DNA of 47,428 nt, taken from IMG/VR virus record IMGVR_UViG_2574180238_000003; one strand, written 5' to 3'. Position 1 is the first letter of the stretch, and each line of letters starts with the position of its first letter. Positions 1-13,718 of this stretch are shown here, one piece after another. Both the position numbers and the translations under genes were made by a program. The notes under the pieces were generated by a model. That model was given only the letters and a program-made list of their open reading frames with translations. It was not told where the DNA came from and did not search any database. Source of the stretch: a virus. Its lineage: Duplodnaviria > Heunggongvirae > Uroviricota > Caudoviricetes.

Positions 1-1119
1 TCAAATAACCAACTTAACCCATTCCTGACCTCGGGTATCGTTATAGCGATCGGTGGTTGCCTGGACTTTATGTCCTAGTAAGGTTTTTGTATCGATACCC
101 TGTGCACGGTACAGCCGTTCAGATAGAGAGCGTTGTTCATGAAATGTGGGCGGTGTTTTTCCTGCTGGTGGAATTATTCCAGCCAGATCCCGCGCTTTGG
201 CAAAGTAGTCGCTCAGGTTGTCTTTACTCATCGGCTTTGGTTGTTTCTGGTGCCGACTATGGATTAGATATGGACTTAATATTCTGTCTCGGCATCCATC
301 AATAACGTCTTTTAACGTTATCCCAATGGCATCACAGCGTAGTGTAAGCGGTAACGCCAGACGCATTCCGGTTTTTCCCTGGGTGATATGCAAGTGTTCG
401 TTCCACACATCTGAAAAACGCATGTGGCAAATGTCATCACGGCGCTGACCAGTGACAATCGCAAGAAGCATTGCGTTACGGATAAAGTGTTTTTCCGGCG
501 TTGCGTTGTAAATTTTTTGCCAGTCTTCCAGGGCGAGCCTGGCTCTGGTTACTTTAGGGATCGGTTTACGGGTAGCCTCCGGAGGATTCCATCCAGGAGG
601 AACTTCCCCTGCATGTTGTGCTTCTTTATAAATATCAACCCATAATCCGCGATTTACTCTCGCTGTGCTGACCATGTCTTTATCCAGCCATTCATCCAGT
701 ATTAATGCAAAGTCTCTTACTTCCAGGTCTTTCAATGGGTGATTTCCCAGGCGGAAAACCAGGTATGCAGCCATTCGCGCCTTTTCTTTGTGGGTTGTAG
801 CTGCAATATCTCCATTTTTCAGTCGTGAGTCCTGTATTTTCAGATATCGATCAACCCATGCTTTTAATCTGATACCCCGACGTTTTGTTGCTGATGGACT
901 TTCATCAATTTTGCGCATGAAATATTCTGCTTCTGCTGCAGCTATTCGTTGATTAGCCGTGGAAGCGATTTTTTCTGCCTTGTCTTTGTCTGTTCCGAGT
1001 CCGTGAAATTTTCCAGTCACTGGATTTTTATACTGGTAGTAAACCTTGCCAGTTCTGCGATCAAACTTTTCGTAAAGACATGCTATGTCAGTGCTGTTTT
1101 TTCGTGGCCTCGGTGACAT
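1..1119 (-). CDS. int: Phage integrase (tyrosine recombinase)
   Basis: 372-aa ORF ending at window position 1. C-terminal half shows the tyrosine-recombinase layout (TGQRRDD arginine box, HEQR, LLGH, terminal Y in TDRY). Lies at the prophage left end overlapping xis, as in lambda. Confidence 0.9.
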   Translation of the reverse strand: MSPRPRKNSTDIACLYEKFDRRTGKVYYQYKNPVTGKFHGLGTDKDKAEKIASTANQRIAAAEAEYFMRKIDESPSATKRRGIRLKAWVDRYLKIQDSRLKNGDIAATTHKEKARMAAYLVFRLGNHPLKDLEVRDFALILDEWLDKDMVSTARVNRGLWVDIYKEAQHAGEVPPGWNPPEATRKPIPKVTRARLALEDWQKIYNATPEKHFIRNAMLLAIVTGQRRDDICHMRFSDVWNEHLHITQGKTGMRLALPLTLRCDAIGITLKDVIDGCRDRILSPYLIHSRHQKQPKPMSKDNLSDYFAKARDLAGIIPPAGKTPPTFHEQRSLSERLYRAQGIDTKTLLGHKVQATTDRYNDTRGQEWVKLVI

Positions 1120-1366
1120 GAGTTAAAATCTCCTTCAGTGCGTCATCATCGTCAGTATGAATTTCCGGCGCAATTCCTGTTTCACCAGGACCCACAAATA
1201 CTGCTCGGCGATCTATCAGCCAACGCCCACGGATTTTTTGTGGCCTTGGAACGATGTATCCCATTTTTCCGTATTTCACCAGGGTAGTGTTTGTTATTGG
1301 GAGACTGAACCGTTTAGGTTTCCACTCGTCGAGCGTTATCAGGTACTGTTCGCTCATGGCCATCAC
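1088..1366 (-). CDS. xis: Excisionase (Xis-like DNA-binding protein)
   Basis: 92-aa ORF immediately upstream of and overlapping the int start; small basic protein in the canonical xis position. Exact start Met among MMAM is uncertain. Confidence 0.7.
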   Translation of the reverse strand: MMAMSEQYLITLDEWKPKRFSLPITNTTLVKYGKMGYIVPRPQKIRGRWLIDRRAVFVGPGETGIAPEIHTDDDDALKEILTHVTEATKKQH

Positions 1367-1418
1367 TCCGGAATGCGCCAGTTGCAGAATAGCAACTACA
1401 ACTGGCGACGGTTGAACA

Positions 1419-3890
1419 TTAAAAATCAGCCTGACTCGGGATCAGTTTTTGCCAGATGGCTGAAACGTATTTTGCCTGGTAACGCGTATCGTGCAGGGCG
1501 TTATGGTGTTCACCTTCGAATGGAATAGTCGTTCTTGCGTCGAAATCCATCACCAGTCCCAGAGCAACCATCGTTCTTACATCGCGATCATTGGTGTAAC
1601 GCCACGGGCAGGGGATCCCCTGCCGTTCATATGAACGGCGTAAAATCACGTTGTCGAAAGTTGCACCGTTACCCCAGACCTGAACAAAAAATTCACCGGA
1701 GTTTTCGTCGATAAATTCCCGGAATTGCAGCAGTGCATCATCCAACGGGATTTCATCGGTCAGAATGGCGGATTGTGCTTCGCGTGACTGTTTCAGCCAC
1801 CACTTAATGGTGTCCCGTTCGATGACCCCGCCTGCGGTTTCCAGATCGATAGTTTTGCTGAATTCTGGCCCCATCTCTCCGGTTGCCGGATCAAAAAACT
1901 TACCGGCTATAGCGTTTATTGGCGCATCAGGATTTTTTCCCATTGTTTCAAGGTCAATCATCAGATGGTGCCACAACCTGCTGGTGGATGTGATTTCACG
2001 ATGACCGTTCACCTTAATTAAGGGATTTGCTGTCTCGCCAGTTTTATTATCGCTGGCGTGATACTGATCGCTGTCAGTGTTCTCCTTGTGCGGATCTTCA
2101 GTGCCTTCCATTTCCTCCGGAGCATTTTCCTGAACTTCAATCAGGCTCTCTCCATCGAATGTTTCCTGGTAGGTTGCGTCGCCCATCACCGCACCACAGT
2201 CAGGACAGTTGCCGCCACCGGTCTGACCGCATGCGGTGCAAACTTTCTCCACTTCCTGTTGCACTGCTGGTTCTGGTTGTTGCTCTTCTGGCCCGTTTTG
2301 TTGCGTATCCGGGCTGTTTTGTTCCGCTTCTGGCTCATTTTGTTTCACGCCGGGCTGATTCTGGCCCTCAGCGTTGCGACTCTGGATCCCTTTCACCCAT
2401 TTCGGATCATTAGGGTCGCTAATCCCTTCAACAAATTCACCACGTGATGCAGCAAGCAATTTATCGGCGTCAGGCTGGCTGATATTGGCTGCCTGCATAA
2501 TTTTGTTTACTTCGTCAGCGGTAACTTTTACCGGCTCTGGTTGTACGGAATCTTCAGCGGTATCTACATTTTGCGGTAAGCCCGTATATGTGCCATTTTT
2601 TCGGGCAAAATATTCCTCTTTTGAGATTTCGGTAGCGCCGGCAGCCAGCGCCTTGTCCAGACCAGAAAGTTTGTTTGCCCTGCCGTATTTTTCCTCGCCC
2701 TTATCGGTAAAGACGAAATAAAATGGTCCTTCACGCTCTACAGATGGTTCAGCTTCCACCAGGATTTCATTTTTTTGAGTATCGGATTCTGCCGTCTCCA
2801 CTGGAGCAGTTTGTGCTGCTGACGGCTGGAGAGTATCAGCAGAGCTCTGGTCTGTTTCTTCATGCTCAAACACGCCCTTTGTTGTCAGGTATTCGCTGAT
2901 ATATTTGTTCAGTGCAACGGGATCTTTGTGAATGTCGATCGGACGTTCACGGACAAGGCCAAAAATAGTCTGACGGTCATAGCCAAGTGCTTCGGGCTGT
3001 TTGCGCATTGATGCTGAGATACGCTTCCAGTCTTCGCGATCCTTGTCGATAACCTCATTTGTCGCCCAGCGATGGATGGTACCGTCAATATTTCCCGCAT
3101 TCACATCACCGGGCCAGAGGGCGCAGGCCAGCTCATTGTCGAGTGTTTTCCATGTCTGTTTGTATTCTCGGCGAACGGCAACAGTGACATCCCCGGTTTT
3201 TTCAGCAGAGTTTTCAGTGTTCTGTTGGTTTACTCTGGAACGGGCGATATCAACGACAGATGTGTATTTCCCGGTTTCCTTGCGTTCACCTTCGCGACGT
3301 TTTTTCCAGATGCGCATCTCTGCCTGAATTTCGGGCCATTTAGCAGCAGGCTTGCATTTATGCTTAACCCACCCGATGGCATGCAGCTTAAGCTCCGGAT
3401 ACATGGCGTTAACTTCTGGCATTTTCATCAACGCTTCAACGATATGGCCGTCGAATGTTGCCATGTCTTCCTGCAACAATTCCTGTGCGCTAATCACCAT
3501 ATCAACAGTGATGTTTTCACATGTGTCGAACTTAACCATGACGGCGTTCTGTACTTCAGGGGCCAGCTTGTCAAAGGTGACGTTCATCGGATCGGATTCA
3601 GTCTCGACCGGGACAAAGGAAGCAGACGCCTCATCCCAGCGGTTTTCCTGCATATATTCGGTATCCCAGGAATCGAGGGTAGGGCGGGGTATGCCGGGTT
3701 TATCCTCACAGACAATAAATTTATAAGCGCAGTCCTGAGCTGCCGGGAATTGCTCCAGAAATTGCCAGTGAAATTTTGCGCGTGCGCGACGCTCATCACC
3801 GGCTTCAATGGCAGTGGCCACCGCAACAGCGCTATCTTCTTTTATGGCCTGTTCATCAGGAATAGCCGCGCAAATAAAGATTTTACTCAT
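1419..3890 (-). CDS. Exodeoxyribonuclease VIII (RecE)-family protein with C-terminal DnaQ-like DEDDh 3'-5' exonuclease domain
   Basis: 823-aa ORF. Central Cys-rich segment (CTACGQTGGGNCPDCGAVMGDATYQETF) and the flanking KLLAASRGEFVEGISDPNDPKWVKGIQ segment resemble the RecE linker region as recalled. C-terminal ~200 aa carry DEDDh motifs read directly: MIDLETMG (DxE), WGNGATFDN, HNALHDTRY (Hx4D). Confidence 0.75.
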   Translation of the reverse strand: MSKIFICAAIPDEQAIKEDSAVAVATAIEAGDERRARAKFHWQFLEQFPAAQDCAYKFIVCEDKPGIPRPTLDSWDTEYMQENRWDEASASFVPVETESDPMNVTFDKLAPEVQNAVMVKFDTCENITVDMVISAQELLQEDMATFDGHIVEALMKMPEVNAMYPELKLHAIGWVKHKCKPAAKWPEIQAEMRIWKKRREGERKETGKYTSVVDIARSRVNQQNTENSAEKTGDVTVAVRREYKQTWKTLDNELACALWPGDVNAGNIDGTIHRWATNEVIDKDREDWKRISASMRKQPEALGYDRQTIFGLVRERPIDIHKDPVALNKYISEYLTTKGVFEHEETDQSSADTLQPSAAQTAPVETAESDTQKNEILVEAEPSVEREGPFYFVFTDKGEEKYGRANKLSGLDKALAAGATEISKEEYFARKNGTYTGLPQNVDTAEDSVQPEPVKVTADEVNKIMQAANISQPDADKLLAASRGEFVEGISDPNDPKWVKGIQSRNAEGQNQPGVKQNEPEAEQNSPDTQQNGPEEQQPEPAVQQEVEKVCTACGQTGGGNCPDCGAVMGDATYQETFDGESLIEVQENAPEEMEGTEDPHKENTDSDQYHASDNKTGETANPLIKVNGHREITSTSRLWHHLMIDLETMGKNPDAPINAIAGKFFDPATGEMGPEFSKTIDLETAGGVIERDTIKWWLKQSREAQSAILTDEIPLDDALLQFREFIDENSGEFFVQVWGNGATFDNVILRRSYERQGIPCPWRYTNDRDVRTMVALGLVMDFDARTTIPFEGEHHNALHDTRYQAKYVSAIWQKLIPSQADF

Positions 3891-3985
3891 TGTGTTTTAA
3901 CCTCATTACAGATTTCAGGGTGAACGAATCCCTGCCATTGCTGGAATTTTTAATCCGTTGGTATGGCGTTAATATGGCTGGAGGG

Positions 3986-4174
3986 TTATCCAGCCGGTGT
4001 TTCGTTATTCAGGTACAGCGATACTTTTTTTACCGGGAGGCATTCACCAGAAATTTTTTGCTCGTCTCTTGCCTGGAGGCAGGATTCTTTACTGGCATAA
4101 ATTCCGGTAATCACATTCTGTGATTCACCCGTTATAAGAAAAACCGTCATCACCAGTGCAAATGCTGAAGTCAT
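3986..4174 (-). CDS. Small membrane protein (N-terminal hydrophobic segment), function unknown
   Basis: 62-aa ORF directly downstream of the DicB-like gene with a 4-bp overlap, the position held by ydfD in Qin; hydrophobic N-terminus. Identity not recognised. Confidence 0.4.
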   Translation of the reverse strand: MTSAFALVMTVFLITGESQNVITGIYASKESCLQARDEQKISGECLPVKKVSLYLNNETPAG

Positions 4175-4359
4175 TGACGTTCTCCGAAAATACCAAGTTT
4201 AATAAGGGCAATTCGGGAAAGAATGGAATTATCATTGAGCAGATAAGGCTCATATTTCCGCATATTAATGGCATCCTCAGTAAACGCTTTATTACTGAGC
4301 AGAACACCAATATCAAAACAACCTTCAGACGTATTAACGTTTGGTAATAACGTTTCCAT
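4171..4359 (-). CDS. dicB: DicB-like cell-division inhibitor
   Basis: 62-aa ORF; N-terminus METLLPNVNTSEGCFDIGV...FTEDAIN closely matches the recalled E. coli DicB N-terminus; same length; lies just downstream of a DicF-like sRNA as in Qin. Confidence 0.7.
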   Translation of the reverse strand: METLLPNVNTSEGCFDIGVLLSNKAFTEDAINMRKYEPYLLNDNSILSRIALIKLGIFGERQ

Positions 4360-4534
4360 TATCGCGTCCTCAACAATGAATTTTGTGATGCCGTGCCTGG
4401 TGCCTCCAGGTGACGTTAACCAGTTAACAATTAACGCCGGATTGTTAGTTGATGTCTGTTACGCAAGTAAAAGACCGCTTGTTTTAACTGTTCCGCGTGC
4501 GCATGGCCGCATTCACCGCATCACAAAATTCACT

Positions 4535-4575
4535 TTAAAAAGAGCGGATATCCATTTCCGCCGAATCACCAGAAA
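4535..4575 (-). ncRNA. dicF: DicF-like small RNA with intrinsic terminator
   Basis: Minus-strand sequence tttctggtgattcggcggaaatggatatccgctcttttt: the 5' end matches the recalled DicF 5' end (UUUCUGGUGA), followed by a hairpin (gcgga/tccgc) and U-run. Downstream flank (uuuuuaaagugaauuuugugaug..gugaaugcggc..gcgcacgcggaacag) also matches the recalled dicF-dicB spacer. Ends are approximate. Confidence 0.55.
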
Positions 4576-4912
4576 AGTGATAACAGAGGTTGTTGTGGCT
4601 GGGGGGTCACTTAAGCGTATGGTCAACCTGACAACCCGGTGTCCTCAACGGGGGAAGGAATAACCCCGCCATACTTACCGCCGCGCTATTTCGCGGATTG
4701 CCACAACCGGAAACGCACGGTTGAAGAAATTTAACGACAAGCCTTATATGCAAAGGAATCTCGCCGTGCGCTTTCGTGTTATGCCCTGACTTTTCAGGGA
4801 TATATCCTTTCAGTAAACTGTCAGTGCCGGATTCTTATCCGTGTCCGGCGCACGACCACACGCTGTCACGAGAGGTCTCCATTCTCAACCAGTAACCTCA
4901 ATGGAGGATAAA

Positions 4913-5107
4913 ATGTCAGAGCAGGAGTTAAAACTTGGTGCATGTTATTGTGTTCTCAAGGAGCTGGTACACATGCTTCCATCTACTCAGTATCAACAGT
5001 TAGTTGGCAATTTAAATCAGCGAATCGAAGCTATGTTAAAATCTGATGGTTTTAATAACGTAGAAACGCTGATGCTAAAAAGATATCTTGATGGATTGAT
5101 CAGATAA
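4913..5107 (+). CDS. Hypothetical small protein (64 aa)
   Basis: ATG at 4913 preceded by GGAGGA (4901-4906); ORF MSEQELKLGACY...; convergent with the leftward operon and overlapping the 3' end of the 5075-5434 gene, so it may be spurious. Confidence 0.3.
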   Translation: MSEQELKLGACYCVLKELVHMLPSTQYQQLVGNLNQRIEAMLKSDGFNNVETLMLKRYLDGLIR

Positions 5108-5434
5108 CATTTTTTTACGGCGTTCATATTCGTTAATATTTATGAAGCCTGTTGCCAGAAGCAGTTCGTTAATTTCATGGTTGTTTGGCTGTTTCTGGCT
5201 CTTTGAACTGAGATCTTCCACTTCTTTTTCTGCAAATTGTTTTGCTGTATCCTCTGTGCCATGGATATTTAAAGCTGTATCTGAAAACAGCCCAGTAAAC
5301 GCATCGCGCACATTACGAGCCATATTATCAGTGTCTTTTTTTGTTACCGATTCCAATTCAAGTTCGTTCAGACGATGACGAAGTGTGTGTGCTGCAATCT
5401 CCTGGATTGAAGGCGGTAAATATTTAAATTCCAT
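5075..5434 (-). CDS. Hypothetical protein, first gene of leftward early operon
   Basis: ORF with internal start MEFKYLPP preceded by a GAGG Shine-Dalgarno; acidic, helical-looking protein; no family recognised. Confidence 0.5.
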   Translation of the reverse strand: MEFKYLPPSIQEIAAHTLRHRLNELELESVTKKDTDNMARNVRDAFTGLFSDTALNIHGTEDTAKQFAEKEVEDLSSKSQKQPNNHEINELLLATGFININEYERRKKMLSDQSIKISF

Positions 5435-5778
5435 CGTCAACCTCATCAGTCAGTGTTTCTTGCTAACCAGCGATGCGCGCCAGCTGCGGTTTTAAACGTT
5501 TTACTTTTGGTATACGTCATCACGGTGAAGGTGCCGTCCTAGTTAGGGAACACACCGCATACCAGAGATTCGTTGTTGCTAAGATTGAGCGTATCCATGT
5601 TGACCTCATTTCCCCTTAACGCCGGGGTAGCGGAACTAAAAACCTGCTGCGCTGTTATACAAAGTGTTCCCGCCGTCATGTTCATACGCCTCGGGCTGGC
5701 TACTTAACCCCTAATCACTGCCGGGTAACTCGAAGTATTGCCCGGTGTTCTGTGGGCGGGGTGGGTTGGTATGGGAGA

Positions 5779-5850
5779 ACTATAGGTAATGCCTAATTAA
5801 TTGTCAATAGGCTGCGCCTAATGTTTTTGACGAAAACCTAATAGGCGATG
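5779..5850 (-). promoter_or_regulatory. Leftward early promoter (PL-like) with repressor operator half-sites
   Basis: On the minus strand: TTGACA (5807-5802), 17-bp spacer, TATAGT (5784-5779). The gcctaat / attaggc motif recurs at 5791-5797, 5816-5822 and 5837-5846, the same motif as in the operators between the repressor and cro-like genes. Confidence 0.5.
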
Positions 5851-5917
5851 ATATGTGGAAGAGGTGATGGGGGGCTAGATAACGGGCTCTAGGAGGTTCC
5901 CATCAGACCATATAAGT

Positions 5918-6394
5918 TTAAGTTCCCGTTTTGGTGATGTTCTGGCTTTTCCGTTCTGATTCTTGATCTTTCAAATACTTACCTACCTTCATCTCCATTG
6001 TGGCAATGTAGGCGCGAACGTCATGATCAACCCAACCAGGTTCCGTGGCATTTGCTGATAAGAGAAAAGCCACAATGGCTCTTTTTTCATCAGAGGCGGC
6101 TTGATAAAGGCTGTTTATGTCTAAAAGTTCACTTTTTGTATCTGAAATGAGGGAGGTGGGTATGGGGTATTCGTTAAGCCCCCAATGCTCTGGGCCAACC
6201 ACATCAGAAAAGAAACGCCATAGCTCTGGAAGTTTATCTTTACTTATCGAACCTTTCTTAATCCAATCATAGATTGATGGTGGTTGGACTTTGAAGTGAC
6301 GCGCTACCTCCGCCTTTGATTTGACGGATCCTGATGCAATTTTTTTGTTAATGGCCTGCTCTATCGCTCGGCCTAAGTCTTTACCACTAAGCAT
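5918..6394 (-). CDS. Prophage repressor, RacR-like (XRE/CI-type HTH)
   Basis: 158-aa ORF divergent from a YdaS/YdaT-like pair; N-terminal HTH-like segment (SKAEVARHFKVQPPSIYDWIKKG); same length and context as Rac RacR. Confidence 0.7.
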   Translation of the reverse strand: MLSGKDLGRAIEQAINKKIASGSVKSKAEVARHFKVQPPSIYDWIKKGSISKDKLPELWRFFSDVVGPEHWGLNEYPIPTSLISDTKSELLDINSLYQAASDEKRAIVAFLLSANATEPGWVDHDVRAYIATMEMKVGKYLKDQESERKSQNITKTGT

Positions 6395-6519
6395 TGCTTA
6401 ATACTCTCCTATGCTCATTGCATTAGGCAATCCCTACTTCATTTGCGTTAGGCGACGCCTATTGACATTTGTATTAGGCGTCGCCTAATATTGTTTCGTG
6501 TTTTTTTGGAGTTCATTCG
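6395..6519. promoter_or_regulatory. Divergent promoter/operator region (OR-like) between repressor and cro-like gene
   Basis: Two 15-bp palindromes, ttaggcgacgcctat (6448-6462) and ttaggcgtcgcctaa (6474-6488), plus a half-site cattaggca (6421-6429); rightward promoter TTGACA (6462-6467) with TAATAT (6486-6491) overlapped by the second operator. Confidence 0.65.
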
Positions 6520-6843
6520 ATGAAAAAAGAGAACTATTCATTCAAACGAGCGTGTGCTGTTGTCGGTGGGCAATCTGCAATGGCTAGGCTTTTAGGTGTA
6601 TCACCTCCAAGCGTAAATCAATGGATCAAAGGTGTACGTCAGTTGCCTGCTGAGCGATGTCCAGCAATTGAACGTGCAACAAGAGGTGGTGTTCTGTGCG
6701 AAGAACTTCGTCCTGATGTTGACTGGTCATACTTACGACGCTCGTCATGCTATTCGCTGAATATGTTGATGAAGCAACCAAATGACGAAAACGAGCATAC
6801 CCGAAATATCAAGAGGCAAATGATTCATGAAAATCAGCCATGA
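6520..6843 (+). CDS. ydaS: YdaS-like Cro/CI-family HTH protein
   Basis: 107-aa ORF with HTH (QSAMARLLGVSPPSVNQWIKG); divergent from the repressor; followed by an overlapping YdaT-like gene, as in Rac. Confidence 0.7.
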   Translation: MKKENYSFKRACAVVGGQSAMARLLGVSPPSVNQWIKGVRQLPAERCPAIERATRGGVLCEELRPDVDWSYLRRSSCYSLNMLMKQPNDENEHTRNIKRQMIHENQP

Positions 6844-7252
6844 GCACATCCGCATGGCGATGAATGCCTGGGCGCATCCGGATGGCGAGAAAGTACCAAC
6901 TGCGAAGATTACCAAAGCGTATTTTGAACTGGGAATGACATTTCCGGAACTGTACGGCGACAGCCATCCGGAAGCCCTAGCTCGTAATACCCAGAAAATT
7001 TTCCGCTGGGTAGAGAAAGACACCCTTGATGCTGTTGAAAAAATTCAGGCGTTGTTACCAGCGATCGAAAAGGCAATGCCACCTTTGCTGGTGGCCCGAA
7101 TGCGCAGCCACAGTTCAGCCTATTTTCGGGAGCTGGTGGAGACGCGGGAACGACTGGTGAGAGACGCTGATGATTTTGTCGCAGTGGCGATTGCCGGTTT
7201 CAATCAGATGAACCGTGGTGGCCCGGCAGGAAATGCCGTGGTGATGCACTAA
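6827..7252 (+). CDS. ydaT: YdaT-like protein
   Basis: 141-aa ORF overlapping the end of the ydaS-like gene; size and context match Rac YdaT. Confidence 0.6.
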   Translation: MKISHEHIRMAMNAWAHPDGEKVPTAKITKAYFELGMTFPELYGDSHPEALARNTQKIFRWVEKDTLDAVEKIQALLPAIEKAMPPLLVARMRSHSSAYFRELVETRERLVRDADDFVAVAIAGFNQMNRGGPAGNAVVMH

Positions 7253-7260
7253 AAGCACGG

Positions 7261-7482
7261 ATGGCGTTAACAATGACGGAGGGGGCTGTGAATCTACCTG
7301 ATTTTTTTACTGTTCTTGCCTGTGGTATTGGTGGGGCTCTGGCCGGACATTTTATCGTGAATCTGTTCACCTGGTATCTCTTTGGTTTCAGGGATTACTT
7401 CACCCGATGGACTTTAAATTGTCTTCGTCGGTTCATTGGGCGCAAGCCTGATATGAGGATTTGGAAAGATGAAAAACGCTGA
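7261..7482 (+). CDS. Hypothetical small membrane protein
   Basis: 73-aa ORF with a hydrophobic core (FFTVLACGIGGALAGHFIVNLFTWYLFGF); no family recognised. Confidence 0.3.
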   Translation: MALTMTEGAVNLPDFFTVLACGIGGALAGHFIVNLFTWYLFGFRDYFTRWTLNCLRRFIGRKPDMRIWKDEKR

Positions 7483-7486
7483 TTGT

Positions 7487-7882
7487 TTATGGCATCGGGA
7501 GGCCGTTTTTCTCCCGATATCGCTCGATCTCTGCCTGAATTGCTGCAACAGCACACATGGAGTCGTACTGGATCAGTCTGAGATTTTCAATCGTGAATTT
7601 GTCTTCCTCCATCAGGTTGAGCATACGAAAGTATCGAAAGACGTAAACTTCTGGGCCGCTGACACCATACCCCTTTGCCTTCGATATGGTTTGGTGGAGC
7701 TCCCATTCTTTCAATGCGAGGGTGAGAGCCATTTCTCTTATTTTTGCTCTGGCTTCAGCAGCCCGGCGTTGCGCTTCAATGGTTCGTTCCGATTTGCGTT
7801 GCCAGGCACCATTAACCAGCGAAACCACGCCAGCAACACACGCACTCAACACAACGCTACTTGTGATAGTTGCAAAATCCAT
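7487..7882 (-). CDS. Hypothetical protein with N-terminal transmembrane segment
   Basis: 131-aa minus-strand ORF (N-terminal TM, then predicted coiled-coil) lying among plus-strand genes; protein-like composition, unlike the overlapping Cys-rich plus-strand ORF. Confidence 0.35.
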   Translation of the reverse strand: MDFATITSSVVLSACVAGVVSLVNGAWQRKSERTIEAQRRAAEARAKIREMALTLALKEWELHQTISKAKGYGVSGPEVYVFRYFRMLNLMEEDKFTIENLRLIQYDSMCAVAAIQAEIERYREKNGLPMP

Positions 7883-7961
7883 GTCGAACCTCCTCTGGTT
7901 CTGTTGATTAGTGAATCACAGATTATAACCAGAGGAAGGTTTGGCTCCAGACGAGGTGAAC

Positions 7962-9047
7962 ATGCGTGATTATGCAAAAGTTTCCCCGCGATTCTGGCTG
8001 GGAGAAACGGGGAGAGAACTTAGAAAGGCGGGTGCAGAAGCGCAAGTTGTTGCTTTTTACCTGATGACATCCCCTCACGCAAATATGTTGGGTTTGTATT
8101 ACCTGCCAGTTTTGTACCTTGCTCATGAATCCGGGCTTGGTCCGGAAGGGGCTTCGAAGGGGCTTAAAAGGGCTGTTGAAGCTGGTTTTTGTAGCTATGA
8201 CCATGATGCCGAGATGGTCTGGGTCCATGAAATGGCAGCCTGGCAGGTTGGGGAAACGTTGAAGCCTGGAGATAACCGTTGTGCAGGTGTCAGGAATGAG
8301 TATGCATCATTACCTGAAAACGCCTTTCTGTCAGCCTTTTACGACAGATATAAAACGGATTTCCATCTGGATGTGAGGCGGAATAATCGCCGGAATTCAG
8401 CAAGGGGCTTCGAAGAGGCTTTAAAGGGGCTTCTAAGCCAAGAACAGGAACAGGAGAAAGAACAGGATCAGGATAAAAATACTATGCTTCATGGCGAAAA
8501 AATCGCCACGAACCAGGCAGGGGATGTTCAGAACGTCAATCCTGGTCAGCCAGCAGGCACGACACCGGAAGCCGATTCGGGCGCTGTGCAGCAGGCGATG
8601 ACCGCAAGGCCGGAACAATCACACCAACTGCAGCAGCCTGAAGCCGATTCCGCCATTCAGCGGGAAGCCGATCAGGTAGTCCCGGAAAACACCGGGCAGC
8701 CTGTGGGACGAGTGGATTATCCGGATGTGTTCGAACAGGTCTGGCGGGAATACCCGTTGCGTGCCGGGGCAAACCCGAAGAAATCCGCTTTCAGTGCCTG
8801 GAAGGCCAGATTACGCGAGGGGGTGCCACCAGAGGCCATGCTGGATGGCGTGAGGCGTTACGCAAGATACTTGGCGACTACCGGGAAAACGGGAACGGAA
8901 TTTGTTCAGCGAGCGACGACGTTTTTTGGACCGGACCGGAATTTTGAAAACCCCTGGTTGCTCCCGGTAAGCGGCACGAACAACCAGCGTTGTGTGAATC
9001 ATGTTTCTGAACCGGATACCGAAATTCCGCCAGGCTTCAGGGGGTAA
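7962..9047 (+). CDS. Putative phage replication protein (YdaU/DUF1376-like N-terminal domain)
   Basis: ATG 7962 preceded by GAGGTG; N-terminal segment RFWLGETGRELRKAG...FYLMTSPHANMLGLYYLP, a low-complexity EQ-rich linker, and a Trp/Arg-rich C-terminal domain; in the replication-gene position after the immunity region. Family assignment is from memory. Confidence 0.5.
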   Translation: MRDYAKVSPRFWLGETGRELRKAGAEAQVVAFYLMTSPHANMLGLYYLPVLYLAHESGLGPEGASKGLKRAVEAGFCSYDHDAEMVWVHEMAAWQVGETLKPGDNRCAGVRNEYASLPENAFLSAFYDRYKTDFHLDVRRNNRRNSARGFEEALKGLLSQEQEQEKEQDQDKNTMLHGEKIATNQAGDVQNVNPGQPAGTTPEADSGAVQQAMTARPEQSHQLQQPEADSAIQREADQVVPENTGQPVGRVDYPDVFEQVWREYPLRAGANPKKSAFSAWKARLREGVPPEAMLDGVRRYARYLATTGKTGTEFVQRATTFFGPDRNFENPWLLPVSGTNNQRCVNHVSEPDTEIPPGFRG

Positions 9048-9087
9048 GTGTTTATTTCAGGTCATGAGGTAATTTTCAGGAGGGCTT

Positions 9088-9513
9088 GTGGCAAAAGTTT
9101 TTACACAAGAAGAGCGAGAAAAAATTAAAGGGCAGGTTGTTGAGCTAGTACGCCGGAGTGGGCGCGAGACGTTACGGCAACTGGAAGCCAAGACAGGTGC
9201 GACAAGATATCTGATGAGCGTTCTCGCCAGAGAGCTGGTTGCCAGTGGTGATGTATACAACTCTGGTTACGGGTTATTCCCGTCTGAACAGGCTCGTAAG
9301 GACTGGCAAAACGCCCGCAAAAAACTCTCAAGGGCAAAGCTGAAGAAAAAAACACCTGTGGTTGATCCGGACCTTATCTGGTCGTTACCAGACGGAGAAA
9401 TACGTCGTTATGACAGGCGTCAGAACATAATCTGTAGCGAGTGCCGGAAGAGCGAAGTTATGCAGCGCGTGCTGGCGTTTTATCAGGGGAATTTTCAGGA
9501 GGTGGTGCTGTGA
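9088..9513 (+). CDS. Hypothetical protein (possible winged-helix DNA-binding)
   Basis: 141-aa ORF with GTG start after GGAGGG; no family recognised. Confidence 0.45.
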   Translation: MAKVFTQEEREKIKGQVVELVRRSGRETLRQLEAKTGATRYLMSVLARELVASGDVYNSGYGLFPSEQARKDWQNARKKLSRAKLKKKTPVVDPDLIWSLPDGEIRRYDRRQNIICSECRKSEVMQRVLAFYQGNFQEVVL

Positions 9514-9570
9514 GTGAAATTAGCTATCAGGCTTCAATTGCCGCTGGCATTCGCATCAAAGGAGAGGAGC

Positions 9571-9927
9571 ATGGAAATAAAACCAGAAGATGAGTTAAGT
9601 AATATTGTTTTATTTCCGGTAAAAGAGGATGACCCACGTAATCAGGTTAATTTTCTTTATGAGCCATCGGAAAGGCCATATTGTCATCACGCCTCTGTCC
9701 GGGTTGACGAAAAAGAGCGTCAGGTCCGCTGTAAAATCTGCGGTGCAGTTGTGGAGCCATTTGACTGGATGCTCTCTGTTGCGAAAAGAGAAACCAGGCT
9801 GGCAGATGATGTAAAACTATTGCGCCTGGAGGAACAGGAAAGGCGAAAAAATATAGGAAAGCTAATTCAGATTGAGCGTAACGCGAAAGCGCGGATACGC
9901 AGAGCGACAAAATCCAGAACTGAATAA
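9571..9927 (+). CDS. Hypothetical protein with putative zinc-ribbon (CHH...CxxC)
   Basis: Internal ATG 9571 preceded by AAAGGAGAGGAG; Cys/His cluster YCHHASVRVDEKERQVRCKICG. Confidence 0.45.
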   Translation: MEIKPEDELSNIVLFPVKEDDPRNQVNFLYEPSERPYCHHASVRVDEKERQVRCKICGAVVEPFDWMLSVAKRETRLADDVKLLRLEEQERRKNIGKLIQIERNAKARIRRATKSRTE

Positions 9928-10021
9928 TTAAATTTAGCACTGCTAAAAATTAATCCTTAACCGGAGGGATTTCTGCACCCTCAGAACATCAGGAGACCGC
10001 CTGAAAGGGCGGTAATGAAAA

Positions 10022-10390
10022 ATGACTGAATTAACAAAAGAGCAATTAATCAAAGAAGCCAAATTAAAAATAGCGGTTGCGAAATGTTACCCTAATTCAG
10101 AGATGGCCAGGGTAGAGGGCGAGCTATTCAAAATTGCACTGGCATCGCTGGAAGCGGTTCCGGTGGCATGGCTGCATTCAGACAATGGCCTGGGTATTCC
10201 AGCAATAACCAGGAGTAAAAACGTTGCTGATAGTTGGTTATCAAAGGGCTGGTATGTTCAGCCGTTATATGTAGCCCAACCAGTACCGGTGGTGCCGGAT
10301 GCTCGTCCATCTTTAAATAATGGCATTGTCGGATTTGATGAAGGCTGGAATGCCTGCCGGGATGCCATGCTTAATGGAGATAAATCATGA
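10022..10390 (+). CDS. Hypothetical protein
   Basis: 122-aa ORF in the nin-like region; ATGA overlap with the next gene. Confidence 0.5.
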   Translation: MTELTKEQLIKEAKLKIAVAKCYPNSEMARVEGELFKIALASLEAVPVAWLHSDNGLGIPAITRSKNVADSWLSKGWYVQPLYVAQPVPVVPDARPSLNNGIVGFDEGWNACRDAMLNGDKS

Positions 10391-10869
10391 TTAATCGTAT
10401 CAAGCTGGAGCACATCCTCGAATATGCCAGGCAGCAGAAATGTATTGGGCAACTTTGTAAAATTCCACCAGGGGATATGGTTGAGATCATGGAAATAGCT
10501 ATGCGTCAGGCTGGCAACTTTCAGGTAATTCCTGATGACGGTCGCGAACAGTTCGAAGCGCTTATCAGGTTCTATGCGGATGATAAAAACCATGAAACAT
10601 TGTTGCTTCGTGCTAACGAAGGGATGAATTACCGGGATCCAAATGTGGATTTGGCGTGGATATCCTGGAAATCCAGCCGAGAGCACATATTGCCGGGAAA
10701 AAGCGACAATAATCCAGCATCAGGCGATCAGGTAAGTGAATTAACAATGTGGGTGAAGCGGTTATCTCATTCCTTAAAAAGCGTTAATAAATCAAGCAAA
10801 CTACCGGATAAAGCGATGGACTACCTGAAGCGAAACGGACTGATAAACGAGGAGGATATTTTACGATGA
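10387..10869 (+). CDS. Hypothetical protein
   Basis: 160-aa ORF translationally coupled to the upstream and downstream ORFs. Confidence 0.5.
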   Translation: MINRIKLEHILEYARQQKCIGQLCKIPPGDMVEIMEIAMRQAGNFQVIPDDGREQFEALIRFYADDKNHETLLLRANEGMNYRDPNVDLAWISWKSSREHILPGKSDNNPASGDQVSELTMWVKRLSHSLKSVNKSSKLPDKAMDYLKRNGLINEEDILR

Positions 10870-10949
10870 CCAGGCCTGAAGCGTTCATAACGGTAGGAAT
10901 AGCAATGGCGGTGGCGCTGGTGGTGTATTCGATTTGTCGCTGGGGATAA
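10866..10949 (+). CDS. Small hydrophobic peptide (27 aa)
   Basis: ATGA overlap with the upstream gene stop; MTRPEAFITVGIAMAVALVVYSICRWG is a single predicted transmembrane helix. Confidence 0.3.
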   Translation: MTRPEAFITVGIAMAVALVVYSICRWG

Positions 10950-11159
10950 AAACGGTTTGCGGGGAAAGAAGAGTTAAGTAGAATTGCTGCGGGTGCTTGA
11001 GGCTGTTTGCCTCGGGCATGCCGCCGTAAGGCAGACAGAGAAAAGCCCCAGTTAACATTACGCGTCTTGCAGGACGCTTAACATTAATCTGAGGCCCAAT
11101 CTATGCTTCACAAACGTAGGTTAGCCTCTTACGTGCCGAAAGGCAAGGAGAAGCAGGCT

Positions 11160-11315
11160 ATGAAGCAGCAAAAGGCGATGTTAATCGCCCTGATCGTCAT
11201 CTGTTTAACCGTCATAGTGACGGCACTGGTAACGAGGAAAGACCTCTGCGAGGTACGAATCCGAACCGGCCAGACGGAGGTTGCTGTCTTCGTAGACTAC
11301 GAATCTGAGAAGTAA
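11160..11315 (+). CDS. hokD: Hok/Gef-family type I toxin (HokD/RelF-like)
   Basis: MKQQKAMLIALIVICLTVIVTALVTRKDLCEVRIRTGQTEVAVF... matches the Hok family signature and recalled RelF/HokD; GC hairpin ggcgagggagaaatccctcgcc (11325-11346) just downstream, typical of hok mRNA 3' ends. Confidence 0.85.
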   Translation: MKQQKAMLIALIVICLTVIVTALVTRKDLCEVRIRTGQTEVAVFVDYESEK

Positions 11316-11393
11316 GAGTGACCAGGCGAGGGAGAAATCCCTCGCCACCTCTGATGTGTCAGGCATCCTCAACGCACCCGCACGTCCCCCGTT

Positions 11394-11756
11394 TTGGCAG
11401 ACTTTGTTTTTTCCTGGCATTCTGGTTTACAATTCGCACGTCAGCCTGAACAACTGGCACCTGCTGCGTCACCGGAGAACCCGATGGCGCAACATATAAA
11501 ATCCCACAATTCTGAAGTCGATCCGACCATTAAGCGGGGGCGGCGTTCACACGTATTTAAAACCGACTGGTTCCAGCATGACCTATGCACTGAAGAACAG
11601 GCCGAATGGCTGATCCAGTGTTACCGCAGGCGCGGATATGAGTTTGAGAAAGCCCTCAGCTTCGATCGTCGTCACTGGATAATCTCCGTCAGGCTCCCTT
11701 ATTCCGAACGCCCACCGCGTCCGTCCCGCACATTCCAGCAGCGCATCTGGAGGTAA
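11394..11756 (+). CDS. Hypothetical protein
   Basis: ORF between hok and the DUF968 gene; probable start at an internal Met (MAQHIKSHNSEV, 11484). Confidence 0.4.
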   Translation: MADFVFSWHSGLQFARQPEQLAPAASPENPMAQHIKSHNSEVDPTIKRGRRSHVFKTDWFQHDLCTEEQAEWLIQCYRRRGYEFEKALSFDRRHWIISVRLPYSERPPRPSRTFQQRIWR

Positions 11757-11757
11757 C

Positions 11758-12807
11758 GTGCGGGTATTACTTCGACCTGTTCTGGTACCGGAACTCGGTC
11801 TGGTTATCGTTAAGCCAGGCCGTGAATCAATGTCAGTATTCCATAACGGCAGAATATTGGTGGAGCCGGAACCGAAAAACATGCGCGGTCTGCCGTCCGG
11901 AGTCGTTCCTGCCGTTCGCCAGCCGCTGGCAGAGGATAAAACATTACTGCCATTTTTCAGCGATGAGCGGGTTATTCGTGCAGCAGGTGGTGCAGGTGCA
12001 CTGTCTGACTGGTTATTACGTCACGTGAAATCCTGCCAGTGGCCACACGGCGATTATCATCACAGCGAAACCGTCATTCACCGTTACGGTACCGGCGCGA
12101 TGGTGTTGTGTTGGCACTGTGACAACCAGCTGCGCGACCAGACATCAGAATCACTCGATCAACTTGCTCAGCAGAATCTGGTTGCCTGGATGATTGACGT
12201 CATCCGTCACGCAATAAGCGGTACGCAGGAGAGGGAGTTATCGCTGGCCGAATTATCCTGGTGGGCGGCCTGCAATCAGGTGGTGGATGCACTGCCTGAG
12301 GCAGTAGCGCGTCGTTCGCTGGGATTACCAGCGGAAAAAATCCGCTCCGTATACCGTGAGAGTGACATCGTACCGGGAGAACAGACAGCCATCAGCATAC
12401 TGAAGCAGCGCACAAAAAATATTGCGCTGCCACTTCACGTCCACCAGCAACAAAATCCACCACAGAAAAAAACGGTTGTCAGTATCGCTGTTGATCCGGA
12501 GTCTCCTGAATCGTTCATGAGGCGGCCTAAACGTCGCCGTTGGGTTAATGAGAAATACACGCGCTGGGTAAAGACACAGCCGTGTGCGTGTTGTGGTAAG
12601 CCAGCTGACGATCCGCATCACCTGATTGGTTATGGTCAGGGGGGAATGGGAACAAAGGCCCACGATATTTTCACGCTACCGTTGTGCCGGGAGCACCACA
12701 ACGAACTTCATGCAGACCCGCTGGAGTTTGAGAAAAAGTACGGCTCTCAGATTGAGTTAATTTTTCGTTTTCTTGATCACGCCTTTGCGACTGGCGTGCT
12801 CGGGTAA
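11758..12807 (+). CDS. YdfU-like DUF968 protein (Cys/His-rich C-terminal putative nuclease domain)
   Basis: 349-aa ORF; C-terminal CACCGKPADDPHHLIGYGQGGMGTKAHD...CREHHNELH cluster; same length and hok-adjacent context as Qin YdfU. Confidence 0.65.
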   Translation: MRVLLRPVLVPELGLVIVKPGRESMSVFHNGRILVEPEPKNMRGLPSGVVPAVRQPLAEDKTLLPFFSDERVIRAAGGAGALSDWLLRHVKSCQWPHGDYHHSETVIHRYGTGAMVLCWHCDNQLRDQTSESLDQLAQQNLVAWMIDVIRHAISGTQERELSLAELSWWAACNQVVDALPEAVARRSLGLPAEKIRSVYRESDIVPGEQTAISILKQRTKNIALPLHVHQQQNPPQKKTVVSIAVDPESPESFMRRPKRRRWVNEKYTRWVKTQPCACCGKPADDPHHLIGYGQGGMGTKAHDIFTLPLCREHHNELHADPLEFEKKYGSQIELIFRFLDHAFATGVLG

Positions 12808-12819
12808 AAGAGGTGACTG

Positions 12820-13179
12820 ATGCTCATAGATTTGGTTTTACCTTACCCGCCGACGGTGAACACTTACTGGCGTCGTCGTGGCAGCACATATTTTGTCTCA
12901 AAAGCCGGGGAGCGTTATCGCCGGGCAGTGGCGCTTATTGTTCGCCAGCAGCGGCTGAAATTAAGACTGTCCGGACGGCTGGCAATAAAAATTATTGCAG
13001 AGCCACCGGATAAGCGTCGTCGTGACCTGGACAATATTCTGAAAGCGCCGCTGGATGCGCTGACGCATGCGGGAATGTTAATGGACGATGAGCAGTTTGA
13101 TGAAATCAATATTGTACGTGGTCAGCCAGTATCTGGTGGACGGCTGGGTGTGAAGATTTACAAAATTGAGAGTGAGTGA
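12820..13179 (+). CDS. rusA: RusA Holliday-junction resolvase
   Basis: 119-aa ORF; LPYPPTVNTYWR... N-terminus and the DKRRRDLDN acidic motif match the RusA family; nin-region position upstream of Q. Confidence 0.85.
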   Translation: MLIDLVLPYPPTVNTYWRRRGSTYFVSKAGERYRRAVALIVRQQRLKLRLSGRLAIKIIAEPPDKRRRDLDNILKAPLDALTHAGMLMDDEQFDEINIVRGQPVSGGRLGVKIYKIESE

Positions 13180-13187
13180 GCGTAAAT

Positions 13188-13718
13188 ATGATATATCCGG
13201 AAATTACAGGCAAAAGCGGCGAACATTTACGCCTGAACACGCTGGAAGCAGTCTGGATCCAGGGGAAATTACGGATGTGGGGGCGGTGGTCGTATATCGG
13301 TGGGGGTAAATCCGGAAATATGTTTAACCGGTTACTGGTTTCGAAAAAACTGACGAAAACCGCAGTTAATGAGGTTTTACGCAGAATGAAGAAATCCGGG
13401 CTGGATAAACCGGAACTTGAGGCATTTTTTCGGGATATGACAAGAGGAAAGCAGAAGAGCTGGTTGTCACATTGTACAGACACAGAGGCGTTGATTATTG
13501 ATCGCGTTATCAGTGAGGTGCTTGGGGAATATCCCGGGCTAATCAATGTTCTCCGGCAAAGGTACGAAGGACGGGGAATGAGTAAGAGAAAAATGGCAGA
13601 ATGTTTAAATCGTACTCACCCGGAATGGTGCTTCAGCACATGTGAGAAACGTATTGCAGGTTGGTTAGCCGTGGCTGAACACATGCTTTATGTACCTATG
13701 CACGATTCATTTCGATAA
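13188..13718 (+). CDS. Late-gene antiterminator Q
   Basis: 176-aa ORF directly upstream of the late region (methylase, tRNAs, lysis genes), downstream of rusA; Cys/His-containing C-terminus; assigned mainly by position and size. Confidence 0.65.
   Translation: MIYPEITGKSGEHLRLNTLEAVWIQGKLRMWGRWSYIGGGKSGNMFNRLLVSKKLTKTAVNEVLRRMKKSGLDKPELEAFFRDMTRGKQKSWLSHCTDTEALIIDRVISEVLGEYPGLINVLRQRYEGRGMSKRKMAECLNRTHPEWCFSTCEKRIAGWLAVAEHMLYVPMHDSFR

What the first reader, a model, noticed from the sequence alone, without database searches (positions are those of the whole stretch)
1419..3890. RecE-family exonuclease with a DnaQ-like DEDDh domain instead of the RecE PD-(D/E)xK domain, and no adjacent recT/bet
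The 823-aa protein shares the RecE-like central region (zinc-ribbon segment C-x2-C...C-x2-C and the KLLAASRGEF...KWVKGIQ block), but its C-terminal domain shows 3'-5' exonuclease DEDDh motifs (MIDLETMG; WGNGATFDN; HNALHDTRY) rather than a lambda-Exo/RecE-type 5'-3' nuclease. No single-strand annealing protein gene (recT, bet, erf) lies between xis and dicB. A 3'-5' DEDDh exonuclease would not produce the 3' overhangs needed for classical Red/RecET recombination, so the function of this early-left gene may differ (for example anti-defence or processing).
Basis: partly seen in the sequence, partly recalled or inferred. Interest (0 to 1): 0.55.

Follow-up and report, generated by a model that had tools for sequence, protein, structure and literature searches.

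The report
Prophage RecE-like protein with 3'-5' exonuclease
This is an intact copy of a very common E. coli prophage gene: a RecE-like scaffold that ends in a T4 DexA-type 3'-5' exonuclease instead of RecE's 5'-3' nuclease and never has an annealing-protein partner; the kind is already catalogued, but what it does is untested.

Summary
Window 1419-3890 (-) is an intact 823-aa ORF. Residues ~273-625 resemble RecE, including the KLLAASRGEF block and a Cys4 zinc ribbon. Residues 641-813 are a full-length Pfam Rv2179c-like DEDDh exonuclease domain, whose only solved relative by sequence is T4 DexA. There is no PD-(D/E)XK domain and no annealing protein anywhere in the 47-kb prophage.

It is not new. 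NCBI names it "exonuclease" or "3'-5' exonuclease". The N-terminus belongs to Pfam YdfE_N/YdfE_C, and the K-12 Qin pseudogene ydfE is its IS2-truncated remnant. DNA of the DEDDh tail occurs in 75% of complete E. coli genomes. Zheng et al. 2025 described DnaQ-like nucleases in lambdoid Rec modules and a nuclease-only, Chi-rich class typified by phage Tritos (87% identical here).

What I add:
- The gene is under purifying selection, with invariant catalytic residues.
- 0 of 124 loci with the DEDDh tail carry an annealing gene, against 33 of 36 loci with the RecE-nuclease tail.
- The scaffold is a mosaic platform that also carries a Rad52-fold annealing domain in other prophages.
- This prophage has 11 Chi sites and no Gam.

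The likely function is a 3'-5' DNA exonuclease made in the lytic cycle. Its biological role is inferred, not shown.

The parts
1419..3890 (-). 823-aa gene for the YdfE/RecE-scaffold DEDDh exonuclease (PGAP: WP_032223156.1 'exonuclease')
   Evidence: ORF list. It is 100% identical to E. coli HY220605. Full-length match to PHROG 2082. An intact ORF of at least 799 codons is present in all 80 IMG/VR loci. dN/dS is 0.13-0.34.
3279..3890 (-). N-terminal alpha/beta domain, aa 1-204 (Pfam YdfE_N in close homologues)
2871..3152 (-). Helical domain, aa 247-340 (probably Pfam YdfE_C; first part of 'module B', which is also found in RecE)
   Evidence: AF2 helices 247-338 have pLDDT 84-95. PF27432 = YdfE_C; which residues it covers was not shown to me. 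Module B is shared across the family.
2586..2735 (-). Small beta-hairpin/helix domain, aa 386-435, with the invariant GPFY...GRANK motif
   Evidence: AF2 pLDDT is 74-85. G388, P389, F390, Y391, R404, A405 and K407 are invariant in 77 sequences.
2007..2483 (-). Acidic, low-complexity linker ('module C', aa ~470-628) shared with RecE; it is the segment of shared homology at which modules are exchanged
   Evidence: It is about 75% nucleotide-identical to K-12 recE over nt 1425-1874 of the gene, and 85% identical to RecE_N+DEDDh chimeras from nt 1419 to the end. BLASTP. Composition.
2196..2240 (-). Cys4 zinc-ribbon motif: C551, C554, C562, C565
   Evidence: Invariant in 66 alleles. Conserved in K-12 RecE.
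1452..1970 (-). DexA/Rv2179c-family DEDDh 3'-5' exonuclease domain, aa 641-813. Catalytic candidates are D646, E648, D746, H796 and D801.
   Evidence: Pfam PF16473, E 7e-61. PDB sequence hits go only to 8KEL/8KEN, which are T4 DexA: E 9e-6 for the single sequence and 3e-14 for a profile. The five residues are invariant in 66 alleles. dN/dS is 0.13.
1088..1366 (-). Excisionase, immediately downstream of the exonuclease gene
   Evidence: PGAP annotation.
1..1119 (-). Integrase; the prophage is inserted next to potC
   Evidence: PGAP annotation.
3986..4174 (-). DUF1482 (YdfD-like) gene, immediately upstream
   Evidence: Pfam PF07358. The order dicB-DUF1482-exonuclease holds in 79 of 80 loci.
4171..4359 (-). 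dicB
   Evidence: Pfam PF05358, E 1e-35.
5779..5807 (-). pL-like leftward promoter (TTGACA-17-TATAGT). It is the only strong leftward consensus site upstream of the exonuclease gene.
   Evidence: Consensus scan, 11 of 12 positions matched; no promoter-like site between it and the exonuclease. This is an inference, not a measurement.
164..22271 (.). 11 Chi sites (GCTGGTGG), 8 on the + strand, all in the int-to-lysis half of the prophage
   Evidence: 11 found against 2.0 +/- 1.5 expected; 0 of 100 shuffles reach 11.

Best explanation
The gene encodes a functional modular protein of lambdoid-prophage early-left operons. It is the full-length form of the K-12 Qin pseudogene ydfE.

Architecture:
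- an N-terminal scaffold of unknown fold and function (YdfE_N and YdfE_C domains plus a small beta domain);
- an acidic, probably disordered linker with a Cys4 zinc ribbon, shared with RecE;
- a C-terminal DEDDh exonuclease of the T4 DexA / Rv2179c family.

The protein is one product of module shuffling at a fixed junction. In relatives, the same scaffold carries one of four tails: RecE's PD-(D/E)XK 5'-3' nuclease (then always with recT), a Rad52-fold annealing domain, a short helical tail, or this DEDDh domain.

Most likely the protein is made from the leftward early promoter after induction or infection. It would act as a metal-dependent 3'-5' exonuclease on DNA 3' ends, brought by the scaffold to the same, still unknown, site or partner as the RecE nuclease and the annealing tails.

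It is not a Red/RecET-type recombinase. The phage has no annealing protein and no RecBCD inhibitor but is rich in Chi sites. It therefore probably depends on host RecBCD and RecA for recombination-dependent replication.

Shown here: the architecture, intact catalytic residues, purifying selection, the junction, the absence of partner genes, and the Chi enrichment.
Inferred: enzyme activity and polarity, DNA rather than RNA as the substrate, the timing of expression, and what the 3' trimming achieves.
For: - Domain calls: PF16473 over its full length, E 7e-61. The only solved relative by sequence is T4 DexA, a 3'-5' DNA exonuclease (PMC12153337).
- D646, E648, D746, H796 and D801 are invariant in 66 unique alleles.
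- dN/dS is 0.13 for the DEDDh domain and 0.13-0.34 for the other modules. An intact ORF is present in all 80 IMG/VR loci.
- The similarity to RecE ends at aa 625 (RecE 591), and the same junction is used in RecE_N+DEDDh chimeras.
- Partner genes: 0 of 80 plus 0 of 44 DEDDh loci have RecT, Bet, Exo or Gam nearby; 33 of 36 loci with the PD-(D/E)XK tail have recT.
- Among 54 cluster representatives, tails are DEDDh 8, PD-(D/E)XK 12, Rad52-like 17, short 6, and each tail type occurs with both N-terminal types.
- The gene occupies the Rec-module slot, last before xis-int, with one pL-like promoter upstream.
- There are 11 Chi sites against 2 expected, and no Gam, annealing protein or SSB.
- This matches the 'Tritos' class of PMC12315714 (nuclease only, no anti-RecBCD, Chi-rich). 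Tritos carries an 87% identical gene in the same context.
Against: - No biochemical or genetic data exist for this protein.
- The Pfam family is named after an exoribonuclease, so RNA cannot be excluded as the substrate.
- In E. coli, 3'-5' DNA exonucleases usually inhibit recombination (noted in PMC12315714). A pro-recombination role would therefore be unusual.
- Expression from pL is inferred from a consensus scan.
- The gene is retained in 75% of E. coli genomes, often in several copies. That could instead point to a benefit for the host.
Confidence: 0.55

Rival explanations
1. It is a prophage-encoded defence nuclease of the HREX (EcD) type. A DexA-like exonuclease would degrade the modified (5hmC) DNA of superinfecting T-even phages and so protect the lysogen.
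For: - A standalone E. coli DexA homologue, EcD, degrades 5hmC DNA and protects against T4 when expressed from a plasmid (PMC12153337).
- Our domain belongs to the same DexA family.
- The gene is kept under purifying selection in 75% of E. coli genomes, many of them in defective prophages.
- It lies next to dicB.
- The equivalent of DexA D169 (D782) is conserved.
Against: - No promoter-like site lies between the pL-like site and the gene. It is the last gene of the repressed early-left operon.
- There is no PADLOC hit.
- The equivalent of DexA W152, the 5hmC-stacking residue, is T in this allele and Y in most alleles.
- The D90-to-A change said to define EcD is absent: D718 is invariant.
- EcD is a standalone protein that starts at the exonuclease motif (MIDTET), whereas this is an 823-aa fusion.
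Confidence: 0.15
2. It is an RNA-directed or anti-defence exonuclease. As a 3'-5' exo(ribo)nuclease like Rv2179c, it would degrade host or defence-system nucleic acids, such as RNAs, retron or DRT cDNA, or linear signalling oligonucleotides, during lytic growth.
For: - The Pfam family is named for the M. tuberculosis 3'-5' exoribonuclease Rv2179c, and NCBI names many copies '3'-5' exoribonuclease'.
- The gene is expressed early and has no recombination partner.
Against: - Profile and single-sequence searches of PDB sequences return only T4 DexA, a DNase, and not Rv2179c.
- The same scaffold otherwise carries DNA-recombination modules: the RecE nuclease and a Rad52-fold annealase.
- No defence-system target is indicated by any result.
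Confidence: 0.15
3. It is a canonical RecE-type recombination exonuclease whose annealing partner is simply encoded elsewhere or was missed.
For: - Older annotations call it 'exodeoxyribonuclease VIII'.
- It shares the central region with RecE.
Against: - There is no PD-(D/E)XK domain, and the RecE equivalog model scores 249 bits against a cut-off of 1269.
- No annealing protein is found in the whole 47-kb prophage by tblastn, Pfam, PHROG or PGAP, nor in 124 related loci.
Confidence: 0.02
4. It is a decaying remnant with no function, like ydfE in K-12.
For: K-12 Qin ydfE is an IS2-truncated pseudogene of this family. Many host prophages are defective.
Against: - An intact ORF of at least 799 codons is present in all 80 IMG/VR loci, and 73 of the 79 extracted genes are exactly 823 codons.
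- dN/dS is 0.13-0.34, with dS of about 0.4-0.6.
- The catalytic and zinc-binding residues are invariant.
Confidence: 0.03

Closest known systems
RecE (exonuclease VIII) of the Rac prophage, E. coli K-12
   Same: - Same slot in the early-left operon, before xis-int.
- Shared helical 'B' module and acidic zinc-ribbon linker: aa 273-625 align with RecE 288-591, and identity is far higher in the linker (aa ~463-625) than in the rest of the alignment (38% over the whole).
- Same position for the junction with the catalytic domain.
   Different: - The C-terminal domain is DEDDh (3'-5') and not PD-(D/E)XK (5'-3').
- The first ~250 aa are the YdfE type and not the RecE N-terminus (PF06630).
- No recT, ralR or rcbA lies downstream.
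- It fails the NCBIfam RecE equivalog.
T4 DexA (exonuclease A; PDB 8KEL/8KEN) and its standalone E. coli homologue EcD ('HREX', PMC12153337)
   Same: Same DEDDh family. DexA is the only solved structure found by sequence (E 3e-14 with a profile). The catalytic motifs are conserved.
   Different: - Identity to T4-type DexA is about 27%.
- The domain is fused behind a 640-aa scaffold.
- The equivalent of DexA W152 is not conserved (T or Y).
- D90 is retained, unlike in EcD.
- The role is unknown.
'Tritos-type' nuclease-only Rec module and the DnaQ-like nucleases of lambdoid phages (Zheng, Casjens, Davidson, Amundsen, Smith 2025, PMC12315714)
   Same: - The gene is 87% identical to that of phage Tritos, in the same int-xis-exonuclease-ydfD-dicB context.
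- There is no annealing protein, SSB or anti-RecBCD gene.
- Chi sites number 8 on the top strand and 3 on the bottom, inside the published range of 21/6 to 7/2.
   Different: Nothing essential differs. The paper's supplementary tables were not available to me, so I could not see whether its authors typed the Tritos nuclease as RecE-like or DnaQ-like.
YdfE (K-12 Qin prophage pseudogene; Pfam YdfE_N/YdfE_C)
   Same: It is 89% identical over aa 1-255, with the same dicB-ydfD-ydfE order.
   Different: K-12 ydfE is cut by IS2 and lacks everything after aa ~255, including the exonuclease domain.
Rv2179c (M. tuberculosis 3'-5' exoribonuclease), the founder of PF16473
   Same: The Pfam family match covers the whole model.
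   Different: No match to it was returned from PDB sequences at E <= 1. It is a standalone bacterial RNase, not a phage fusion protein.

Membership tests
RecE / exodeoxyribonuclease VIII (NCBIfam NF007259 equivalog) | Whole-protein score at or above the curated cut-off (1269 bits) | tested here: not met
   249 bits. Only aa 453-625 match model positions 446-602 of 877.
RecE / exodeoxyribonuclease VIII | C-terminal PD-(D/E)XK (RecB-type) 5'-3' nuclease domain | tested here: not met
   BLASTP and tblastn with RecE 592-866 find nothing in the protein or the window. The C-terminus is PF16473 instead.
RecE / exodeoxyribonuclease VIII | Cognate annealing protein gene (recT) directly downstream | tested here: not met
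   xis follows after 52 nt. There is no RecT in the window. 0 of 124 DEDDh loci have one, against 33 of 36 RecE-nuclease loci.
RecE / exodeoxyribonuclease VIII | Central region with the KLLAASRGEF block and Cys4 zinc ribbon | tested here: met
   aa 463-625 align with RecE 443-591 at high identity; the four cysteines are conserved.
DEDDh exonucleases, Rv2179c-like (Pfam PF16473) | Pfam gathering threshold and full-length domain coverage | tested here: met
   205 bits against 27; positions 1-177 of 177; E 7e-61.
DEDDh exonucleases, Rv2179c-like (Pfam PF16473) | Five catalytic residues: D, E (Exo I), D (Exo II), H-x4-D (Exo III) | tested here: met
   D646, E648, D746, H796 and D801 are all invariant in 66 alleles. 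Motifs I and II align with those of DexA.
DEDDh exonucleases, Rv2179c-like (Pfam PF16473) | 3'-5' exonuclease activity, and its substrate (DNA or RNA) | not testable with these tools
   This needs an enzyme assay.
HREX defence exonuclease (EcD type, PMC12153337) | Loss of the DexA tetramer residue (D90 to A) together with conserved 5hmC-recognition residues (W152, D169) | tested here: not met
   The D90 equivalent, D718, is invariant. The W152 equivalent is T766 here and Y in 51 of 66 alleles. The D169 equivalent, D782, is conserved. The alignment is at about 27% identity, so the residue mapping is approximate.
HREX defence exonuclease (EcD type, PMC12153337) | Protection against T4 and selective cleavage of 5hmC DNA | not testable with these tools
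PADLOC v2 has no model that matches.
YdfE_N / YdfE_C protein family (Pfam PF27430, PF27432) | Match to both Pfam models | tested here: inconclusive
   The models are absent from the local Pfam copy. They are precomputed on homologues that are 86-94% identical and named. The protein is 89% identical to K-12 ydfE. Membership is very likely but was not scored directly.
Tritos-type Rec module (PMC12315714: nuclease only, no annealing protein, SSB or anti-RecBCD; Chi-rich) | Nuclease present; annealing protein, SSB and anti-RecBCD genes absent; at least four top-strand Chi sites | tested here: met
   (8 Chi on the + strand, 3 on the - strand). The gene and its context match phage Tritos. Anti-RecBCD types other than lambda Gam were screened only through PGAP, Pfam and PHROG annotation.

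The most novel reading that the evidence does not exclude
The YdfE/RecE scaffold is a general delivery platform. It tethers interchangeable DNA-end modules (a 5'-3' nuclease, a 3'-5' nuclease, or a Rad52-type annealase) to one host or phage target. On this reading, the DEDDh version, the commonest in E. coli, defines a distinct early phage function. That function would work with the host RecBCD-Chi-RecA pathway, or against a host system, rather than through Red/RecET-type annealing. It would be a third kind of lambdoid 'Rec module' logic with opposite nuclease polarity.
Probability: 0.2. Interest if true: 0.6.

Novelty: already known. Interest (0 to 1): 0.35.

Why it matters
DNA of the DEDDh tail is present in about 75% of complete E. 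coli genomes, often in several copies. That is about four times as many places as canonical recE. Older annotations still call the gene 'exonuclease VIII', which implies the wrong polarity and the wrong pathway.

The function of the RecE N-terminal region is a long-standing gap. Seeing that the same scaffold carries nucleases of either polarity, or an annealase, gives a concrete handle: find what the scaffold binds.

For recombineering and for models of prophage evolution, these very common prophages should not be counted as RecET-like recombination-proficient elements.

Tried and rejected
1. Literature searches for Rv2179c plus prophage, for RecE/DEDDh and for YdfE gave nothing functional. 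One search was wasted because word-start matching turned 'RecE' into 'receptor'.
2. An ISG20-like bacterial exonuclease preprint (PMC13344964) concerns short, unrelated DEDDh proteins and was set aside.
3. EcD's sequence could not be retrieved. Only its primers are given, and they show that it starts MIDTET. The direct comparison is therefore missing.
6. Rfam found no DicF, and BLAST shows that the DicF core is missing here.
7. The supplementary tables of PMC12315714 are not held.
8. PADLOC gave no hit for the exonuclease.
Full report
**1.

Window 1419-3890 (-) is a single 823-aa ORF.

- Pfam finds one domain: PF16473, the Rv2179c-like 3'-5' exoribonuclease domain. It covers aa 641-813 and the whole model, with E 7e-61.
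- The NCBIfam RecE equivalog matches only aa 453-625. It scores 249 bits against a cut-off of 1269.
- BLASTP against K-12 RecE aligns aa 273-625 with RecE 288-591. The alignment includes the KLLAASRGEF...KWVKGIQ block and the CxxC-x7-CxxC motif. It stops where the RecE nuclease domain begins.

**2. Where the window comes from**

The window is a lambdoid prophage inserted beside potC. It is 100% identical to E. coli HY220605.

The gene order is int, xis, exonuclease, DUF1482 (YdfD-like), dicB, several small ORFs, then a RacR-type repressor. This is the arrangement of the K-12 Qin dicB operon.

K-12 ydfE is an IS2-truncated pseudogene. It is 89% identical to aa 1-255 of this protein. Close homologues carry the new Pfam families PF27430 and PF27432, named YdfE_N and YdfE_C.

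NCBI names the protein 'exonuclease', '3'-5' exonuclease' or '3'-5' exoribonuclease'. Older phage records call it exonuclease VIII.

**3. No annealing partner, here or elsewhere**

In this window:
- tblastn with RecT, Bet, lambda Exo and Gam finds nothing.
- Pfam, PHROG and PGAP show no annealing protein, SSB or anti-RecBCD gene.
- The 'Beta_protein' gene at 23792-24859 is PF14350 and matches PADLOC PD-Lambda-2_C. I did not treat it as an annealing-protein gene: tblastn with lambda Bet finds nothing there.

In related loci:

| Loci (IMG/VR) | Tail type | Annealing or related gene nearby |
|---|---|---|
| 80, same protein type | DEDDh | 0 with RecT, Bet, Exo, Gam or the Rad52-like tail; 79 have dicB-DUF1482-exonuclease |
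| 36 of 80 seeded with a RecE_N+DEDDh chimera | PD-(D/E)XK | 33 have recT directly downstream |
| 44 of the same 80 | DEDDh | 0 have recT |

The pairing is therefore strict. The RecE nuclease comes with recT, and the DEDDh tail comes with none.

**4. The gene is functional**

- An ORF of at least 799 codons is open in all 80 loci. Of the 79 genes extracted, 73 are exactly 823 codons.
- D646, E648, D746, H796 and D801, and the four zinc-ribbon cysteines, are invariant in 66 unique alleles.
- Pairwise dN/dS against alleles about 85% identical is 0.13 (aa 1-250), 0.22 (251-460), 0.34 (461-628) and 0.13 (DEDDh).

**5. Which exonuclease family**

Among solved structures, only T4 DexA (8KEL/8KEN) is found by sequence. 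E is 9e-6 for the single sequence and 3e-14 for a profile. Rv2179c is not returned.

DexA is a 3'-5' DNA exonuclease. A standalone E. coli homologue, EcD, cleaves 5hmC DNA and protects against T4 (PMC12153337).

In our protein the residue mapping is as follows:

| DexA residue | Equivalent here |
|---|---|
| W152 | T766 in this allele, Y in most alleles |
| D169 | D782, conserved |
| D90 | D718, retained |

The signature proposed for EcD is therefore not met. The mapping is approximate because identity is only about 27%.

Homologous standalone domains are common in phages, with 1189 records matched. One is a 190-aa gene (56% identical) that sits next to int in phage Eeyore.

**6. A mosaic family**

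A full HMMER search with aa 1-630 found only 243 clusters. I dissected the 54 long representatives. They have:

- two alternative N-termini: the YdfE type, as here, or the K-12 RecE type (PF06630);
- a shared helical module;
- the shared zinc-ribbon linker;
- one of four tails: DEDDh (8), PD-(D/E)XK (12), a ~300-aa third tail (17), or a short helical tail (6). The remaining 11 were unassigned.

Each tail type occurs with both N-termini.

At the DNA level, the linker is the segment shared by this gene, K-12 recE and the chimeras. This explains the fixed junction.

So the same scaffold carries a 5'-3' nuclease, a 3'-5' nuclease, or an annealing domain.

The scaffold itself was modelled by AF2 for aa 1-470, with mean pLDDT 77. 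It has three folded parts: aa 1-204, 247-340 and 386-435. It has no informative match in the PDB.

**7. Genome context**

The window has 11 Chi sites against 2.0 +/- 1.5 expected. Eight are on the + strand, and all lie in the int-to-lysis half. With cos just upstream of the small terminase gene (about 25.2 kb), that half is the right half of the virion map.

Zheng et al. 2025 (PMC12315714) reported three relevant things:
- Some RecE relatives lack a nuclease domain.
- A 'Tritos' class has a nuclease only, no anti-RecBCD gene, and many top-strand Chi sites.

They propose that such phages rely on host RecBCD. Tritos is our best phage match, at 87% identity in the same context.

**8. Expression**

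The only strong leftward consensus promoter is at 5807-5779. No promoter-like site lies between it and the exonuclease gene. By analogy with the dicB operon, the gene is probably repressed in lysogens. This is an inference.

**9. Prevalence**

DNA of the DEDDh tail occurs in 4075 of 5426 complete E. coli genomes, at 8059 places. DNA of the RecE nuclease domain occurs in 1736 genomes, at 1827 places.

**10. Verdict**

The feature is an already catalogued and recently discussed kind, and this copy is an ordinary member. What remains open is the biological role. The best-supported reading is a DexA-like 3'-5' DNA exonuclease made in the lytic cycle and delivered by the RecE/YdfE scaffold. A defence role and an RNA or anti-defence role are less likely rivals.

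Noticed in passing
[not shown]
   Followed up: partly
window 7487-7882 (-): A 131-aa ORF between the immunity region and the replication genes matches the PADLOC model PD-Lambda-6 over its full length (E 9e-90).
   Followed up: no
window 23230-23850 (+) and 23792-24859 (-): A convergent, low-GC gene pair lies between the lysis genes and the terminase. PGAP names one 'sce7726 family' (PADLOC 'cll'). The other is a Pfam Beta_protein (PF14350) that matches PADLOC PD-Lambda-2_C. This is a likely defence moron. I did not count the 'beta family protein' as an annealing protein: tblastn with lambda Bet finds nothing there.
   Followed up: partly
window 164-22271: There are 11 Chi sites (8 on +, 3 on -) against 2 expected, all in the int-to-lysis half. 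One (1980-1987) lies inside the exonuclease gene. This fits the Chi-rich, Gam-less lambdoid class of PMC12315714.
   Followed up: yes
window 4548-4565 (region 4359-4854): The K-12 ydfC-dicB intergenic region is conserved here at about 82%. The stretch that holds the DicF sRNA core is reduced to about 18 nt, and Rfam finds no DicF. DicF therefore appears to be deleted or disrupted in this prophage, although phage Tritos has it annotated.
   Followed up: partly
L171:6079-6999 (E. coli K-12 Qin prophage): The K-12 pseudogene ydfE is the IS2-truncated N-terminus of this exonuclease family (89% identity over aa 1-255). K-12 has therefore lost the DEDDh domain.
   Followed up: yes
L090:4998-5570 (Escherichia phage Eeyore): A standalone 190-aa DEDDh exonuclease, 56% identical to our domain, sits two genes upstream of the integrase gene and directly after a gene annotated queuine tRNA-ribosyltransferase. 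No annealing protein is annotated nearby. So the 'exonuclease next to int' position is kept even without the scaffold.
   Followed up: partly
window 10991-11165 (+); also a Hok/Gef gene near 44.6-44.8 kb (PGAP) and a hokD gene annotated just upstream of the sok match: A sok antitoxin RNA (Rfam RF01794, 116 bits) and two Hok/Gef family genes are present in the one prophage.
   Followed up: no
window ~15407-15568 (+): PGAP annotates tRNA-Ile and tRNA-Arg genes just after a DNA methyltransferase gene in the late-regulatory region.
   Followed up: no
E. coli genome collection: DNA of the DEDDh tail is found at 8059 places in 4075 of 5426 genomes. DNA of the canonical RecE nuclease domain is found at 1827 places in 1736 genomes. 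The 'non-RecE' version is by far the commoner in E. coli.
   Followed up: yes
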